Below are positions 3,900 to 46,347 of a stretch of DNA of 64,000 bases, in pieces (position 1 is the stretch's first letter; each line of letters begins with the position of its first letter). The stretch lies in sequence record LR877332. The stretch is one strand, 5' to 3'. The position numbers and the translations under genes are program-made. Below the pieces are notes generated by a model that saw only the letters and a program-made list of their open reading frames with translations, made no database searches and was not told the origin of the DNA. This stretch comes from Shigella phage vB_SsoM_JK08.

Positions 3900-3989
3900 T
3901 TAAAATCCTTGAAATAATTTATCGGTTGGTTATTAATTATTTATTACTTTGTTACTATCCGTAACAGCGTTATCCGAGTGATTCAAACT

Positions 3990-4016
3990 AAAAAGCCCCA
4001 ACCTTTCGGTCGGGGC
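3990..4016 (-). terminator. rho-independent terminator
   Basis: GC-rich hairpin GCCCCGACCGAAAGGTTGGGGC followed by U-run on the minus strand, just after the stop of gene 4025..4498. Confidence 0.6.
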
Positions 4017-4024
4017 TAAGAATG

Positions 4025-4498
4025 TCATTTGATTTGTTTAGCAGACCAAATGCGGTCTTTAATAATTTTTTGGATGTCTTCAACATACTCAAGAGAGTGA
4101 ACATGTGGATTATCTTTGAAACTATAAGCACGGGCTAACTTTTGGCCTTCGGTTTTGATTACTAAAAGCTCTTTAAGGATAGCTTCATATTTGGAGATAA
4201 TTCCTTTAACAATATTTTTCTCTTGTGTGACTTTAGGATCTTCTTTAGGAGCAGGTTTACCTGAAGCCTTTGCAAAAGCAGCTCCAGTAGCAACTAAACT
4301 TTTCCAAGCCATACTAACTGCATTCCCTGTAAATCCTTCGGCTTTCATATCACGAGCAAATTGGAATCGTGATTCATCGGAAGCATCTTTATAGGAATAT
4401 TTACCCGCGGCAATGGCAGCTTTTGCAACAGCTTGAATTTCAGTGCTAGATGCTTCATTTAACACCGCTTCATTTAAAAATTGAGTATATGATTTCAT
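4025..4498 (-). CDS. internal-protein-like capsid-targeted protein
   Basis: 157 aa; N-terminus MKSYTQFLNEA resembles the capsid-targeting sequence; late promoter TATAAATA directly upstream. Confidence 0.6.
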   Translation of the reverse strand: MKSYTQFLNEAVLNEASSTEIQAVAKAAIAAGKYSYKDASDESRFQFARDMKAEGFTGNAVSMAWKSLVATGAAFAKASGKPAPKEDPKVTQEKNIVKGIISKYEAILKELLVIKTEGQKLARAYSFKDNPHVHSLEYVEDIQKIIKDRIWSAKQIK

Positions 4499-4534
4499 CT
4501 TATTTCCTGTTTTAATTCGGGGTTTTAATATACT

Positions 4535-28814: not shown

Positions 28815-31952
<3,138 letters not shown>

Positions 31953-31983: not shown

Positions 31984-33963
31984 ATGACTTTATTATCTCC
32001 GGGCATTGAGCTCAAAGAAACTACGGTTCAAAGCACCGTGGTTAATAACTCTACTGGTACAGCAGCTTTGGCCGGTAAATTCCAGTGGGGTCCTGCTTTT
32101 CAGATTAAACAGGTTACAAACGAAGTAGATTTAGTTAATACTTTTGGTCAACCTACAGCTGAAACTGCTGACTATTTTATGTCTGCAATGAATTTCTTAC
32201 AATATGGAAATGATTTGCGAGTTGTGCGCGCTGTCGATAGAGATACCGCTAAAAACTCATCTCCGATTGCTGGTAATATTGAATACACAATTTCTACCCC
32301 AGGTAGTAACTATGCGGTTGGAGATAAAATCACGGTCAAATATGTTTCAGATGATATTGAAACTGAAGGTAAAATCACCGAAGTAGATGCTGATGGAAAA
32401 ATCAAGAAAATTAGTATTCCTACTGCAAAAATTATCGCTAAAGCGAAAGAAGTCGGTGAATATCCAACACTAGGTTCTAACTGGACTGCGGAAATTTCTT
32501 CGTCTTCCTCTGGTTTAGCTGCAGTAATAACTCTTGGAAAAATTATTACTGATTCTGGTATTTTATTAGCTGAAATTGAAAATGCTGAAGCTGCTATAAC
32601 AGCTGTTGATTTTCAGGAAAATCTTAAAAAATATGGAATTCCAGGAGTAGTAGCTCTTTATCCAGGCGAATTAGGCGATAAAATCGAAATCGAAATCGTA
32701 TCTAAAGCTGATTACGCGAAAGGCGCTTCTGCATTACTCCCAATTTATCCAGGTGGTGGTACTCGTGCATCTACTGCCAAGGCAGTGTTTGGATATGGAC
32801 CGCAAACTGATTCACAGTACGCTATTATAGTTCGTCGCAATGATGCTATTGTTCAAAGCGTTGTTCTTTCAACTAAGCGTGGTGAAAAAGATATTTACGA
32901 TAGTAACATCTATATCGATGACTTTTTCGCAAAAGGCGGCTCAGAATATATTTTTGCAACTGCACAAAACTGGCCAGAAGGCTTCTCTGGAATTTTAACT
33001 CTGTCTGGTGGATTATCATCAAATGCTGAAGTAACAGCAGGAGATTTAATGGAAGCTTGGGACTTCTTTGCTGACCGTGAATCTGTTGATGTTCAACTGT
33101 TTATTGCGGGTTCTTGTGCCGGTGAATCTTTAGAAACAGCATCTACTGTCCAAAAACACGTCGTTTCAATTGGGGATGCTCGCCAAGATTGCTTAGTATT
33201 GTGCTCTCCTCCGCGTGAAACTGTAGTTGGAATTCCTGTAACTCGTGCAGTAGATAATTTAGTTAACTGGAGAACTGCGGCAGGTTCATACACTGATAAT
33301 AACTTTAATATCAGTTCAACCTATGCAGCAATCGACGGCAACTACAAATATCAGTATGACAAATATAATGATGTGAATCGTTGGGTTCCATTAGCAGCTG
33401 ATATTGCCGGTTTATGCGCGAAAACTGATAACGTTTCTCAGACTTGGATGTCTCCAGCTGGTTATAATCGTGGTCAGATTCTTAACGTTATTAAACTTGC
33501 TATTGAAACTCGCCAAGCTCAGCGCGACCGTTTATATCAAGAAGCTATCAACCCAGTAACTGGTACAGGTGGTGATGGTTACGTATTGTATGGTGATAAA
33601 ACAGCTACTTCTGTTCCTTCTCCATTTGATCGTATTAACGTTCGTCGTCTGTTTAATATGTTGAAAACGAATATCGGACGTAGTTCAAAATATCGTTTGT
33701 TCGAATTAAACAACGCGTTTACTCGTTCATCATTCCGCACAGAAACTGCCCAATACTTACAGGGAATTAAAGCTCTCGGTGGAATTTATGAATATCGTGT
33801 AGTTTGCGATACAACAAATAACACTCCGTCAGTAATTGATAGAAATGAGTTTGTTGCAACATTCTACATTCAACCGGCTCGTAGTATAAATTATATCCAA
33901 CTTAATTTCGTCGCAACTGCTACTGGTGCAGATTTTGATGAGTTAACTGGTCTTGCAGGTTAA
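31984..33963 (+). CDS. 18: gp18 contractile tail sheath
   Basis: 659 aa, matches T4 gp18. Confidence 0.95.
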   Translation: MTLLSPGIELKETTVQSTVVNNSTGTAALAGKFQWGPAFQIKQVTNEVDLVNTFGQPTAETADYFMSAMNFLQYGNDLRVVRAVDRDTAKNSSPIAGNIEYTISTPGSNYAVGDKITVKYVSDDIETEGKITEVDADGKIKKISIPTAKIIAKAKEVGEYPTLGSNWTAEISSSSSGLAAVITLGKIITDSGILLAEIENAEAAITAVDFQENLKKYGIPGVVALYPGELGDKIEIEIVSKADYAKGASALLPIYPGGGTRASTAKAVFGYGPQTDSQYAIIVRRNDAIVQSVVLSTKRGEKDIYDSNIYIDDFFAKGGSEYIFATAQNWPEGFSGILTLSGGLSSNAEVTAGDLMEAWDFFADRESVDVQLFIAGSCAGESLETASTVQKHVVSIGDARQDCLVLCSPPRETVVGIPVTRAVDNLVNWRTAAGSYTDNNFNISSTYAAIDGNYKYQYDKYNDVNRWVPLAADIAGLCAKTDNVSQTWMSPAGYNRGQILNVIKLAIETRQAQRDRLYQEAINPVTGTGGDGYVLYGDKTATSVPSPFDRINVRRLFNMLKTNIGRSSKYRLFELNNAFTRSSFRTETAQYLQGIKALGGIYEYRVVCDTTNNTPSVIDRNEFVATFYIQPARSINYIQLNFVATATGADFDELTGLAG

Positions 33964-34002
33964 TTGATTATGGGGCTTCGGCCCCTATTCTCGAGGAAAC
34001 AA

Positions 34003-34608
34003 GTGATTATTTCTAAGTTTGTTACAATAAAACCAAGAAATCATTCAAAAATGTGGTCGACAATTCTGGGATATAAAGTATCATATCATGATACAGTATC
34101 TGTTCCAATAGAATTAATGCCAAAGAATAGTAATAAAATAGTTGACGCTAAATGTGATTTGTGTGGTATTAAATTTAGTAGAAGCATTCAGCTTTTAAAT
34201 AGAACACCCACGCATGCATGTAGAAAATGTAGCATTAAACAAGTTGCTATTAAAAATTCGGAAGTTCAATCTGGAATAAGTAGACCATGGCAAAGAGGTG
34301 ATAAACATCCTCGATGGACTGGTAAAAGAAAAGAGTTTGCATTATATGCTAGTAGAGTTCATTCTATAACTAAGTCAGCTAAAATAAGAAAAATCTGGTC
34401 AAAATGGCCAAATGCTGATAAAATAGGAGTGTGTGGTGTAGAAGGTGCTTACCAACTTGATCATAAGGTATCTATCAAATATGGATTTGATAATTTAATT
34501 CCGCCGGAAATTATAGCAAGCGTAAAAAATTTAGAAATAATCACTTGGGAATCTAACCGAGAAAAGTCAAAAAGAAATAGCGTAGATCTTTGGGATTTAC
34601 TAGAATGA
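34003..34608 (+). CDS. HNH homing endonuclease (mob-like)
   Basis: Zn-ribbon CDLCG...CRKC and HNH core YQLDHKVSIKYGFDNL...WESNREK; start uncertain (GTG 34003 with GAGGA ribosome-binding site, or ATG 34051); the track start 33964 is a TTG overlapping a hairpin. Confidence 0.65.
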   Translation: MIISKFVTIKPRNHSKMWSTILGYKVSYHDTVSVPIELMPKNSNKIVDAKCDLCGIKFSRSIQLLNRTPTHACRKCSIKQVAIKNSEVQSGISRPWQRGDKHPRWTGKRKEFALYASRVHSITKSAKIRKIWSKWPNADKIGVCGVEGAYQLDHKVSIKYGFDNLIPPEIIASVKNLEIITWESNREKSKRNSVDLWDLLE

Positions 34609-34634
34609 TTCTAAAGGCCTGTTTCGGCAGGCCA

Positions 34635-34642
34635 TATAAATA
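34635..34642 (+). promoter_or_regulatory. late promoter TATAAATA (distal copy)
   Basis: Exact TATAAATA just after the hairpin following the HNH gene. Confidence 0.5.
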
Positions 34643-34693
34643 CACTATATCCTTAATTCTTTAATTCTATATGCCCTAGGTTAAACATAGGGA

Positions 34694-34701
34694 TATAAAT
34701 A
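34694..34701 (+). promoter_or_regulatory. late promoter TATAAATA for gene 19 (proximal copy)
   Basis: Exact TATAAATA 15 nt upstream of ATG 34716. Confidence 0.6.
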
Positions 34702-34715
34702 CTACAGAGGCTAAT

Positions 34716-35207
34716 ATGTTTGTAGATGATGTAACACGAGCGTTTGAATCTGGTGATTTTGCTCGACCTAACTTATTCCAAGTAGAAATTTCTTATCTTG
34801 GACAAAATTTTACATTCCAATGTAAAGCCACTGCTTTACCAGCTGGTATTGTAGAAAAAATTCCAGTCGGATTTATGAACCGTAAAATTAACGTAGCAGG
34901 CGATCGTACATTCGATGACTGGACTGTTACAGTAATGAACGATGAAGCTCATGATGCTCGCCAGAAGTTTGTTGATTGGCAAAGCATTGCTGCTGGTCAA
35001 GGAAACGAAATTACTGGTGGAAAACCTGCAGAGTATAAAAAGAGCGCTATTGTTCGTCAATATGCTCGTGATGCTAAAACAGTAACAAAAGAAATTGAAA
35101 TTAAAGGTCTGTGGCCTACTAACGTGGGTGAACTTCAATTAGATTGGGATTCAAACAATGAAATCCAAACCTTTGAAGTAACTCTTGCTCTCGATTATTG
35201 GGAATAA
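34716..35207 (+). CDS. 19: gp19 tail tube protein
   Basis: 163 aa, matches T4 gp19. Confidence 0.9.
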   Translation: MFVDDVTRAFESGDFARPNLFQVEISYLGQNFTFQCKATALPAGIVEKIPVGFMNRKINVAGDRTFDDWTVTVMNDEAHDARQKFVDWQSIAAGQGNEITGGKPAEYKKSAIVRQYARDAKTVTKEIEIKGLWPTNVGELQLDWDSNNEIQTFEVTLALDYWE

Positions 35208-45729: not shown

Positions 45730-46347
45730 ATGTACCACTTTGTATATGAAACAACAAATCTAATAAATGGTAAAAAGTATATAGGAAAACACTCTACTGA
45801 TGACTTGAATGATGGTTACCTTGGTTCCGGTAAGGCAATTCAGCAGGCTATAAAGAAATATGGTGAAAACAATTTCTCTAGAACAATACTAAAAGAGTTT
45901 AAAACTTCTGAAGAAGCGTACATGTATGAAGAAGAAATTATAACTCCTGAACTAATAAAAAGCAAAAATTATTATAATATGAAACCTGGTGGAATTGGTG
46001 GAATTGTTATGACTACAGAGGTTATAGCAAAGATGAAAGAATCTTCCGCTAAAAGATTTGAAAACTCACCAGGCACGGTATTAGGTAAAACTTGTTACAC
46101 TAATGGAACTAAAAATATTTTTATTAAACCTGGAGAACTTGTTCCAGAAGGATTTGTAAAAGGGATGGTTCATCCTAATAGAAAGTCCAGAAAAGGATGT
46201 AAAGTCAAACCGACTACCACAGGAACTTTTTGGGTCAATAATGGCGCAATAAATAAATTAATACAACCAGACGGTATTATTCCCGACGGATTTATTAAAG
46301 GTCGTCTCATGAAAAGAGATTCTAAAGGCAAATTTAGTAAGGCATAA
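45730..46347 (+). CDS. segE: GIY-YIG homing endonuclease SegE-like
   Basis: N-terminal GIY-YIG module (HFVYETTNLINGKKYIGKHS...GYLGSG); between inh and uvsW as T4 segE. Confidence 0.8.
   Translation: MYHFVYETTNLINGKKYIGKHSTDDLNDGYLGSGKAIQQAIKKYGENNFSRTILKEFKTSEEAYMYEEEIITPELIKSKNYYNMKPGGIGGIVMTTEVIAKMKESSAKRFENSPGTVLGKTCYTNGTKNIFIKPGELVPEGFVKGMVHPNRKSRKGCKVKPTTTGTFWVNNGAINKLIQPDGIIPDGFIKGRLMKRDSKGKFSKA

What the first reader, a model, noticed from the sequence alone, without database searches (positions are those of the whole stretch)
33964..34715. HNH endonuclease gene inserted between tail sheath (18) and tail tube (19) genes, with a doubled late promoter
A roughly 200 aa ORF with a zinc ribbon (CDLCG...CRKC) and an HNH core (QLDHKVSIKYGFDNL...WESNREK) occupies the position where 18 and 19 are normally adjacent. 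The region between it and gene 19 contains a hairpin and two exact TATAAATA motifs 59 bp apart (34635 and 34694), as if the gene 19 late promoter was duplicated by the insertion. The annotated start is uncertain because a GC hairpin overlaps the first codons.
Basis: partly seen in the sequence, partly recalled or inferred. Interest (0 to 1): 0.5.

Follow-up and report, generated by a model that had tools for sequence, protein, structure and literature searches.

The report
Mobile nuclease gene between tail genes
A T6-type phage carries an optional, probably self-spreading nuclease gene (ORF19.1) between its tail sheath and tail tube genes; the two late promoters next to it were there before the gene arrived, and its mRNA seems to fold back on its own start codon to keep the nuclease scarce.

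Summary
The sequence features are real. There is a 201-aa ORF (GTG 34003 to TGA 34608) with CxxC…CxxC and a DH…N…N motif, three hairpins, and TATAAATA at 34635 and 34694.

- Both promoter motifs and the downstream hairpins are identical in phages without the gene, T4 included. The insertion did not duplicate them.
- The first hairpin lies upstream of the true GTG start, not across it.

The insert is 644 bp (33964-34607) and replaces 8 bp of the empty site. Among about 500 close relatives, roughly 380 are empty, 69 carry this allele and 49 carry a second allele with a swapped N-terminal domain. Diverged homologues lie next to the sheath gene in all 26 loci inspected. Alleles do not track phage genera.

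This is T6 ORF19.1, deposited in 1994. I found no functional study.

New here: a conserved long-range mRNA helix pairs the ribosome-binding region and start codon with the catalytic-motif codons about 540 nt downstream. Compensatory changes and frozen synonymous codons support it.

Verdict: an uncharacterised free-standing HNH-type homing endonuclease. Moderate interest.

The parts
31984..33963 (+). Gene 18 (tail sheath, 659 aa), the conserved left flank.
   Evidence: ORF list. Annotated as tail sheath in all matching phage records.
33870..33915 (+). Hot spot of mostly synonymous polymorphism in the last 94-49 nt of gene 18. One haplotype is linked to this allele. It contains a near-consensus late promoter, TATAAATT, at 33885-33892. 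It is a candidate co-converted or target region; that is inference only.
   Evidence: 22 variable sites in 46 nt, against about 1 in 8 elsewhere in the flank. The exact 50-mer occurs in 66 records, against 69 carriers of this allele. TATAAATT found.
33964..34607 (+). The inserted cassette (644 bp). It replaces the 8 bp TACGGTGC found in empty-site phages.
   Evidence: Alignments of filled and empty sites.
33972..33985 (+). Hairpin 1, GGGGC-UUCG-GCCCC, brought in with the cassette. It supplies a hairpin directly after the gene 18 stop codon.
   Evidence: -10.8 kcal/mol. A different GC-rich hairpin occupies the same place in every diverged homologue locus shown.
33993..33996 (+). Shine-Dalgarno sequence GAGG of ORF19.1, 6 nt upstream of the GTG.
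   Evidence: Read directly from the sequence. It is paired in the predicted long-range structure.
34003..34608 (+). ORF19.1 coding sequence (201 aa, GTG start, TGA stop). The N-terminal domain has a CxxC…CxxC finger (codons at 34153, 34162, 34219, 34228). The C-terminal half is an HNH-like nuclease domain.
34459..34566 (+). HNH (DH…N…N) core: D153-H154 (34459-34464), N176 (34528-34530), N185-R186-x-K188 (34555-34566).
33964..34025 (+). 5' side of the long-range mRNA helix. The core is 34000-34025, across the GTG and the first 7 codons. Outer segments are 33964-33969, 33988-33993 and 33995-33997, which include the SD.
   Evidence: Inverted repeat of 26 nt, 92% complementary. Present in the MFE and centroid of the 677-nt RNA, z = -7.7.
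34522..34570 (+). 3' side of the long-range helix. It lies in the codons for V174-K-N-L-E-I-I-T-W…N-R-E-K, the catalytic motif.
34616..34633 (+). Hairpin 2, GGCCUGU-UUCG-GCAGGCC, a pre-existing part of the 18-19 intergenic region.
   Evidence: -12.8 kcal/mol, 0 of 200 shuffles fold as well. Identical in T4 and fPS-2.
34635..34642 (+). Distal TATAAATA late-promoter motif, pre-existing.
34694..34701 (+). Proximal TATAAATA late-promoter motif of gene 19, pre-existing. It is annotated as a predicted late promoter in phage fPS-2.
34716..35207 (+). Gene 19 (tail tube, 163 aa), the conserved right flank.

Best explanation
ORF19.1 is a free-standing homing-endonuclease-type gene.

The protein has two parts. 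An N-terminal module of about 90 aa carries a CxxC…CxxC treble-clef-like zinc finger and presumably reads the DNA target. A C-terminal ββα-metal (HNH, 'DH…N…N') domain presumably nicks or cuts DNA. The inferred roles are H154 as general base and D153/N185 as metal ligands.

Inferred mode of spread: in a mixed infection the enzyme damages genomes that lack the gene, somewhere near the gene 18/19 junction. Recombinational repair from the carrier genome then copies in the 644-bp cassette together with short flanking tracts.

The cassette has no late promoter of its own. It would be transcribed by read-through from the gene 18 late promoter (31948). It brings its own UUCG hairpin, so gene 18 still ends in a hairpin, and it leaves the two gene 19 promoters untouched.

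Translation appears to be held down by a conserved long-range mRNA helix. The 5' UTR, SD and GUG start (33964-34025) pair with codons 174-189 (34522-34570). Initiation would then be possible mainly before the 3' arm is transcribed, or while a ribosome is unwinding it.

Shown by computation: the anatomy, the presence/absence polymorphism, site constancy, allele incongruence with phage taxonomy, residue conservation, fold similarity, and conservation and covariation of the helix. Inferred: nuclease activity, the target, homing, and the regulatory effect of the helix.
For: **Optional gene with exact boundaries.** In the phage collection, 69 records carry this allele, 49 carry a second allele, and about 380 near-identical records have the empty site TAA-TACGGTGC-ATTCTAAAGG.

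**Constant site.** Homologues of 25-68% identity lie next to the sheath gene in all 26 loci inspected. They sit directly downstream of it in 25, with gp19 following in 24 of those; phiM12 has another gene there. Phage 17-11 reads 19-19.1-18. The loci span Gaprivervirus, Dhakavirus, Karamvirus, Gelderlandvirus, Jiaodavirus, Ceceduovirus, Acinetobacter phages, Sinorhizobium phiM12 and metagenome contigs. Records hold one copy each: 239 places in 238 records.

**Alleles do not follow genera.** A versus B inside Tequatrovirus is 53% aa identical with 99-100% identical flanks. PSD9 versus Bp7, both Dhakavirus, is 34% with 99% identical flanks. B versus CkP1 (Karamvirus) is 68%.

**Modularity.** The A and B alleles share the 5' UTR and the nuclease half at 92-100% nt identity but differ (about 45%) across 34019-34385. 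Distant members fuse the same C-terminal domain to HTH repeats, NUMOD3 or DUF7487.

**HNH features.**
- D153, H154, N176 and N185 are invariant in 39 sequences, as are R186 and K188. D153, H154, N176, N185 and K188 are at least 90% conserved in 144.
- The AF2 model (pLDDT 89.5) has β-β-α across these residues.
- BFVD hits include viral proteins named HNH or homing endonuclease.
- Sub-threshold Pfam matches: HNH_4 in 15 and HNH in 7 of 144 members.
- PHROG gives weak homing-endonuclease and HNH hits.

**Long-range helix.**
- In the window, 25 of 26 positions pair.
- In 17 homologues down to about 42% aa identity, 19-24 of 26 pair, against a maximum of 13-17 in control registers.
- 77% of cells are paired, against 33-47% when the partner is slid. 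The covariation score exceeds all 500 shuffles. Double compensatory changes occur at three pairs (AU→UA, UA→CG, CG→GC), and G·U wobbles are tolerated.
- Independent MFE folds put the start codon on the same partner in 15 of 19 mRNAs.
- The whole-RNA folding z-score is -7.7.
- Synonymous codons are frozen in the arms: 0.89 against 0.67, p = 4e-5.
Against: - No sequence-profile method places the protein in a curated HNH family. Pfam and NCBIfam give nothing above threshold. A PDB profile search returns only spurious LRR hits. Foldseek against the PDB finds nothing. hhalign against the HK97 gp74 HNH family gives probability 7%, although it does align DH with DH and N176 with the family's Asn.
- No cleavage site is known. 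The polymorphic haplotype in gene 18 is linked to the allele but is also found, exactly or nearly, in some empty genomes (EC101, typing phage 7, RB14). It therefore does not define a protected target.
- Repeated loss of an old resident gene could produce part of the presence/absence pattern.
- The helix is restricted to the GTG-start subclade. More distant, ATG-start members lack it in this register.
- The control statistics can be inflated by relatedness and by deriving the structure from one member.
Confidence: 0.65

Rival explanations
1. The gene is a resident accessory nuclease that serves the phage and is simply lost often; it is not a self-spreading element. Possible roles would be excluding competing phages, degrading host DNA, or assisting DNA packaging as the terminase-associated HNH proteins of cos phages do.
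For: The best structural matches include the packaging-associated GVE2 HNH (5h0o) and nicking enzymes. The gene lies one gene away from terminase gene 17. Its position is the same in very distant phages, which vertical descent could also explain.
Against: About 77% of close relatives, including T4, lack it. Alleles are incongruent with genus, and two or three deeply diverged alleles coexist within single genera on 99% identical flanks. T4-type terminase carries its own nuclease (established knowledge). The family is modular with swapped DNA-binding domains, as homing endonuclease genes are. Note that an exclusion function would not be exclusive of homing.
Confidence: 0.15
2. The inverted repeat (34000-34025 with 34522-34547) acts at the DNA level, for instance as a recombination substrate or as a site the enzyme itself recognises. 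Alternatively it is a by-product of two conserved peptides (VIISKF and NLEIITW), and not an mRNA structure at all.
For: Both peptides are conserved, so first and second codon positions are constrained anyway. The repeat lies within the parts that the A and B alleles share.
Against: Third-position pairs are also kept, and synonymous codons are frozen only in the arms. Compensatory synonymous double changes occur: ATT→ATC with GAA→GAG, and A→T at -1 with ACT→ACA. G·U pairs are tolerated, and these would be A·C mismatches on the other strand or in DNA. The helix extends into the untranslated leader in different ways in different members.
Confidence: 0.1
3. The ORF is an inactive relic of a former homing endonuclease, carried along passively.
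For: Many phage homing endonuclease genes decay. No curated HNH model recognises the protein.
Against: The ORF is full length in 232 of 238 records. The catalytic-motif residues are invariant or nearly so across 144 diverse members. A regulatory RNA helix is kept under selection.
Confidence: 0.07
4. One reading: the insertion duplicated the gene 19 late promoter.
For: There are two exact TATAAATA motifs 59 nt apart, next to the insert.
Against: Both motifs and all sequence between them are identical in the empty-site phages T4, fPS-2, RB18, EC101, PYps5T and typing phage 7. Only 10 nt (ATATAAATAC) are shared between the two copies. The insert ends 27 nt upstream of the distal motif.
Confidence: 0.02

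Closest known systems
T4 Mob proteins (MobA-E), free-standing HNH homing endonucleases; MobE is the studied case (Edgell, Gibb and Belfort 2010, PMC2988022).
   Same: Both are free-standing genes in an intergenic gap between conserved T-even genes, of the HNH class, sporadically distributed among close relatives, and expressed as part of longer transcripts.
   Different: [quoted passage not shown] ORF19.1 has the reverse order: zinc-finger module first, nuclease last. It is not matched by any curated HNH model. There is no detectable sequence relationship.
SegH and Hef, which replace mobC and mobE at the same loci in T4 relatives. This rests on Sandegren et al. 2005 (PMC1275590), which I saw only as a title in a reference list; the content is from my own knowledge.
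   Same: Different endonuclease genes or alleles occupy one fixed intergenic locus in different close relatives. That parallels the A, B and empty states at the 18/19 locus.
   Different: Here the alternatives are diverged alleles of one family that share the nuclease half, not unrelated families. No activity data exist for ORF19.1.
I-HmuI-type HNH homing endonucleases of Bacillus phages, and HNH nicking enzymes (Gme HNH 4h9d, T5 SciA 9qgx).
RBS-sequestering hairpins that restrict translation of I-TevI, I-TevII, I-TevIII, segB and Aeh1 mobE (PMC2988022, section on translational regulation).
   Same: In both, the mRNA structure covers the ribosome-binding region of a phage homing endonuclease gene carried on long read-through transcripts.
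   Different: The known cases are local hairpins, relieved by a late promoter placed inside the hairpin. Here the partner lies about 540 nt downstream, inside the gene's own catalytic-motif codons. No late promoter lies between the arms. In spirit this is closer to the long-distance interaction that controls replicase translation in RNA phage MS2 (own knowledge).
[not shown]
   Same: It is the same gene at 98.5-99% aa identity.
   Different: The records call it a hypothetical protein, with occasional automatic labels such as 'HNH endonuclease', 'homing endonuclease', 'head morphogenesis protein', 'holin' or 'type II restriction endonuclease'. I found no functional study in the literature that could be searched.

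Membership tests
HNH / ββα-metal nuclease superfamily | Two β strands followed by an α helix, forming the metal finger. | tested here: met
   [not shown]
HNH / ββα-metal nuclease superfamily | A conserved His (general base) at the end of β1, an Asn in the hairpin, and an Asn or His metal ligand on the helix. | tested here: met
   D153-H154, N176 and N185 are invariant in 39 homologues and at least 90% conserved in 144 diverse members.
HNH / ββα-metal nuclease superfamily | Recognition by curated sequence models or by profile-profile comparison. | tested here: inconclusive
   Pfam and NCBIfam give no hit above threshold for the window protein. HNH_4 and HNH appear only as weak hits in 15 and 7 of 144 members. 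hhalign against the HK97 gp74 family gives probability 7% and E 0.005, but with DH and Asn aligned. The PDB profile search returned only LRR artefacts.
HNH / ββα-metal nuclease superfamily | Metal-dependent DNA cleavage or nicking. | not testable with these tools
   This needs an enzyme assay.
Free-standing homing endonuclease gene | Presence/absence polymorphism at one precise intergenic site among otherwise near-identical genomes. | tested here: met
   69 records carry allele A, 49 carry allele B and about 380 are empty. The boundaries are identical.
Free-standing homing endonuclease gene | A gene history incongruent with that of the host genome. | tested here: met
   Allele lineages are shared across genera, and several lineages occur within one genus on 99% identical flanks.
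Free-standing homing endonuclease gene | The enzyme cuts the gene-less allele near the insertion site, and the gene is over-inherited in mixed infection. | not testable with these tools
   There is only an indirect hint: a haplotype block and a synonymous hot spot at 33870-33915 linked to the allele.
T4 Mob family (MobA-E) | [quoted passage not shown] | tested here: not met
   In ORF19.1 the nuclease motif is C-terminal (residues 150-190) and the zinc-finger module is N-terminal. There is no Pfam HNH_3 match. The Mob architecture is taken from PMC2988022.
I-TevI/mobE-type hairpin control of translation | A local hairpin that buries the SD, with a late promoter inside it that yields an unblocked late transcript. 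| tested here: not met
   Local hairpin 1 ends 7 nt before the SD. The SD and start codon are instead buried by a partner about 540 nt away. There is no TATAAATA between 31948 and 34635. It works like this mechanism but is not the same device.
Terminase-associated HNH of cos phages (HK97 gp74, GVE2 HNH) | The gene is adjacent to the terminase genes, universally present in its phage group, and required for packaging. | tested here: not met
   ORF19.1 is separated from gene 17 by gene 18 and is absent from about 77% of close relatives. The profile comparison with the gp74 family is not significant.

The most novel reading that the evidence does not exclude
ORF19.1 stands for a large HNH-like nuclease family that no curated model recognises. 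The profile search found 6,411 50%-identity cluster representatives at E ≤ 0.001. Its T4-type members home to the sheath/tube junction across many phage genera and exist as competing specificity alleles, with a swapped N-terminal domain on a shared nuclease half.

Their expression would be self-limited by a long-range helix between the translation start and the codons of the catalytic motif. Each mRNA would then be translated only briefly, before the 3' arm is made or while a ribosome is crossing it. That would be a new kind of translational governor for a selfish nuclease. It would also tie the protein's N-terminus, its GTG start codon and the codon choice in its active site to one RNA structure.
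Probability: 0.4. Interest if true: 0.55.

Novelty: new member of a known kind. Interest (0 to 1): 0.4.

Why it matters
Free-standing homing endonucleases shape which markers survive when T-even phages co-infect a cell. They also mark boundaries of recombination between phage genomes. This one sits between two core structural genes that are often used as phylogenetic markers, and it is common in sequenced Tequatrovirus phages, many of them isolated for therapy: 118 of about 500 records. Yet it is nearly always labelled 'hypothetical' or mislabelled.

Three things would follow if the reading holds. Naming it correctly would improve annotation. The A, B and empty alleles offer a natural system for studying how these enzymes change target specificity. 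The long-range start-codon helix, if it works as proposed, would add a new way in which a toxic selfish gene keeps its own dosage low without disturbing the neighbouring late genes.

Tried and rejected
- **Promoter duplication by the insertion.** Rejected by the empty-site alignment.
- **TTG 33964 or ATG 33970 as the start.** Rejected. The upstream extension is not conserved and merely reads through the hairpin.
- **Sequence-based proof of HNH membership.** Pfam, NCBIfam, PDB hmmsearch with the full-length and C-terminal profiles, Foldseek against the PDB, and hhalign against the HK97 gp74 family were all negative or below threshold. The LRR hits are a chance resemblance of 'IGxIxNLQxLxWxxN' to the LRR consensus.
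- **AFDB Foldseek.** The library was unavailable.
- **Intrinsic terminators.** None were found in 33800-34800; the hairpins lack a U-tract.
- **Rfam.** Nothing relevant.
- **A protected target site in gene 18.** The haplotype is linked to the allele, but there is no fixed difference between filled and empty genomes. It is therefore kept only as a candidate.
- **Bp7 'HNH endonuclease' as an HNH reference.** It turned out to be GIY-YIG/NUMOD3-like.
Full report
**What the window is.** The region is 99.9% identical to Escherichia phage vB_EcoM-fFiEco06 and 98.6% identical to phage T6. It belongs to a T4-type phage of the genus Tequatrovirus. The local gene order is 17 (terminase, 30120-31952), 18 (tail sheath, 31984-33963), the ORF in question, 19 (tail tube, 34716-35207) and 20 (portal, from 35279).

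**Checking the observation.**
- TATAAATA occurs at 34635 and 34694. The window has 23 copies against 9.7 expected, and no shuffle reached 23.
- There are stable hairpins. Two are UUCG-tetraloop hairpins: GGGGC-UUCG-GCCCC at 33972-33985 (-10.8 kcal/mol) and GGCCUGU-UUCG-GCAGGCC at 34616-34633 (-12.8 kcal/mol). A third, weaker one overlaps the proximal promoter.
- The coordinate 33964 is only the mechanical TTG of the ORF list.

**The insertion and the 'doubled promoter'.** I aligned filled genomes (this window, T6, PP01, PST, JoYop; and W143 and Sf22 with a variant) against empty ones (T4, fPS-2, RB18, EC101, PYps5T, typing phage 7).
- The filled genomes have 644 bp (655 in the variant) where the empty ones have the 8 bp TACGGTGC.
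- From ATTCTAAAGGCC (34608) onwards all genomes are essentially identical, with 2 variable sites in the first 150 nt. That stretch includes hairpin 2, both TATAAATA motifs and the gene 19 start.
- The only repeat between the two promoter copies is the 10-mer ATATAAATAC.
- The promoter pair is therefore an old property of the 18-19 spacer, not a scar of insertion.
- The cassette has no TATAAATA of its own. The nearest one upstream on this strand is the gene 18 promoter at 31948, so expression must depend on read-through.
- The cassette brings its own hairpin, which restores a hairpin right after the gene 18 stop codon. Every diverged homologue locus shown has a different GC-rich hairpin in that position.

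**Distribution.**
- In the phage collection, 69 records have this allele ('A'). 49 have a second allele ('B', as in RB3, RB6, RB7, W143 and Sf22). About 380 records at 90% identity or more have the uninterrupted T4-type junction.
- A and B are about 92% identical up to 34018, only about 45% identical from 34019 to about 34385, and 95-100% identical thereafter. They share the leader and the nuclease half but have different N-terminal domains.
- tblastn finds homologues in 238 phage records, one copy each.
- In all 26 loci inspected the gene lies next to the sheath gene. In 25 it is directly downstream, and in 24 of those gp19 follows; Sinorhizobium phiM12 has another gene there. The loci span Gaprivervirus, Dhakavirus, Karamvirus, Gelderlandvirus, Ceceduovirus, Acinetobacter phages and a dozen metagenome contigs.
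- The exception in gene order is Klebsiella phage 17-11, whose record reads 19, 19.1, 18.
- Alleles do not follow phage taxonomy. A is closer to VR7 and myPSH1140 (59-62% aa) than to B (53%). B is closer to CkP1, S16 and PSD9 (59-68%). PSD9 and Bp7, both Dhakavirus with 99% identical sheath C-termini, have alleles only 34% identical.
- Taken together, these points are the signature expected of a site-specific mobile gene: a fixed site, optional presence, deep allelic lineages shared across genera, and swapped domains.

**What the protein is.**
- Curated libraries do not recognise it. Pfam and NCBIfam give nothing above threshold. PHROGs files it under phrog_5104, 'unknown function', with weak hits to homing-endonuclease and HNH families.
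- The family is large: 6,411 50%-identity representatives at E ≤ 0.001.
- Across 39 close and 144 diverse members, the near-invariant positions are four cysteines (C51, C54, C73, C76) and D153-H154, N176-L177, W182 and N185-R186-x-K188.
- An AlphaFold model built on the family alignment is confident (pLDDT 89.5). It places H154 at the end of strand 150-154, N176 at the start of strand 177-181, and N185 on helix 182-190. That is a ββα arrangement with a short helical insertion.
- Foldseek against viral models finds family members, DUF7487 proteins and proteins named HNH or homing endonuclease.
- Among 144 members scanned singly, DUF4379 (treble-clef finger) is the commonest weak Pfam hit (25 members). 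HNH_4 (15) and HNH (7) come next. Some members carry NUMOD3 or HTH repeats in front of the same C-terminal domain.
- Against this, Foldseek against the PDB, PDB profile searches and hhalign against the HK97 gp74 family (probability 7%) are not significant.
- I therefore accept 'HNH-like ββα-metal nuclease' on motif plus fold. I mark sequence-profile membership as inconclusive and activity as untested.

**Flanks.** The last 94-49 nt of gene 18 (33870-33915) hold 22 variable sites in 46 nt. Nearly all are synonymous, and they form at least four haplotypes. The exact A haplotype occurs in 66 records, matching the 69 A carriers. B carriers have their own haplotype. However, one empty phage shares the B haplotype and some empty phages are within two changes of the A haplotype. 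This may be a co-conversion tract or a target-site polymorphism, but the data do not decide. The A and B haplotypes also create a near-consensus late promoter, TATAAATT, at 33885.

**A conserved long-range mRNA helix.**
- The repeat scan showed a 26-nt inverted repeat, 92% complementary. One arm is 34000-34025 (CAA-GUG and the first seven codons). The other is 34522-34547 (codons VKNLEIITW).
- Folding the whole 677-nt cassette RNA gives -174 kcal/mol against -136.7 ± 4.9 for shuffles (z = -7.7).
- Both the MFE and the centroid contain this helix. It is extended by UUGAUU/AGUCAA, UUCUCG/CGAGAA and GGA/UCU, so the whole leader, SD and start codon (33964-34025) pair with 34522-34570.
- In the homologous register, 19-25 of 26 positions pair in 17 homologues down to about 42% aa identity. 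Control registers give at most 13-17.
- On a 19-sequence alignment, 77% of cells pair, against 33-47% with slid partners. The covariation score exceeds all 500 shuffles. Three pairs show double compensatory changes, two of them between synonymous third positions or leader bases: Ile ATT→ATC with Glu GAA→GAG, and -1 A→U with Thr ACU→ACA. G·U wobbles are tolerated, which points to the sense-strand RNA.
- Independent folding of each mRNA pairs the start codon with the same I180/T181 codons in 15 of 19.
- Synonymous codon choice is frozen in the arms. The commonest-codon fraction is 0.89 there against 0.67 in 60 other conserved columns (p = 4e-5). For example, L177 is TTA in 15 of 16 sequences, while L152 and L200 use five or six codons.
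- The helix is confined to the GTG-start subclade. More distant ATG-start members lack it in this register, although some (Ci1, P0007) pair their start region with a nearby alternative site.
- Rfam has no matching family.

**How it most likely works.** The gene is transcribed late as the tail of the gene 18 message. The protein combines a zinc-finger DNA-reading module with a DH…N…N nuclease. It damages phage genomes that lack the gene, and repair copies the cassette in. All of this is inferred by analogy with characterised T-even free-standing endonucleases (PMC2988022).

Translation is kept low because the finished mRNA buries its own SD and GUG in a helix with the codons of the catalytic motif. 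Initiation would be possible mainly during the seconds before the 3' arm is transcribed, or while a ribosome is crossing that arm. RBS sequestration is well known for I-TevI, I-TevII, I-TevIII, segB and Aeh1 mobE. Those, however, are local hairpins relieved by an internal late promoter. The arrangement here is long-range, and no promoter lies between the arms.

The gene is therefore a new, uncharacterised member of a known kind. The refutation of the promoter-duplication idea makes that part of the finding ordinary. The long-range helix is the one element that a specialist might find unexpected.

Noticed in passing
window 45730-46347 (+): A 205-aa ORF matches Pfam SegE_GIY-YIG (E 6.6e-9) and GIY-YIG. 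It lies upstream of a 502-aa ORF, where T4 has segE by my recollection. This phage therefore carries at least one further free-standing homing endonuclease gene.
   Followed up: partly
window 33870-33915 (gene 18, 3' end): A cluster of 22 mostly synonymous variable sites in 46 nt forms at least four haplotypes among close relatives. The haplotypes linked to the A and B alleles contain TATAAATT (33885-33892), one mismatch from the late-promoter consensus. The T4 haplotype does not.
   Followed up: partly
L007 3769-4350 (phage Bp7) and L022 3747-4328 (vB_EcoM_005): A second optional ORF lies between gp19 and gp20. It is annotated 'HNH endonuclease', but its only Pfam hits are weak and below threshold: SegE_GIY-YIG and NUMOD3. 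In Bp7 the portal gene is annotated as two pieces just downstream.
   Followed up: partly
L106 1615-2211 (metagenome contig carrying P0002): A 198-aa ORF with a faint NUMOD3 hit sits between gp19 and the next gene. This is another likely endonuclease gene one intergenic gap further on.
   Followed up: no
L111 1-420 (ENA contig, 168.7 kb): The terminase large subunit upstream of gene 18 is called as 938 aa with a faint LAGLIDADG_3 hit. This may be an intein or an endonuclease insertion in gp17.
   Followed up: no
L025 (Klebsiella phage vB_KpnM_17-11, MW239157): All on one strand, the gene order is 20-67-68-21-19-19.1-18-15. The ORF19.1 homologue therefore lies downstream of gp19 and upstream of gp18. 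This is either a real rearrangement or an assembly problem. Coordinates in other Klebsiella phage records (match at 3917-4534) fit the usual sheath-first order, but I did not inspect those records.
   Followed up: partly
L006 about 2455-2500 (VR7) and L009 about 2455-2500 (Acinetobacter phage Tonic): The hairpin between gene 18 and the ORF19.1 homologue has TATAAATA in or next to its loop (GCGCGTATGATATAAATACGCGC and GGCTCTCTATAAATAAAAATATAGAGAGCC). This recalls the promoter-in-hairpin arrangement of I-TevI-type control. The window's own hairpin has no such motif.
   Followed up: no
L119 (Salmonella phage S16, HQ331142): The homologue is annotated only as a 106-aa 'gp100.1' starting at an internal ATG. 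The reading frame from the GTG homologous to 34003 stays open at least as far as the catalytic motif.
   Followed up: partly
window 34608-34760: The 18-19 spacer and the first 45 nt of gene 19 are more conserved among close relatives than the flanking coding sequence: 2 variable sites in 150 nt across 12 genomes.
   Followed up: no
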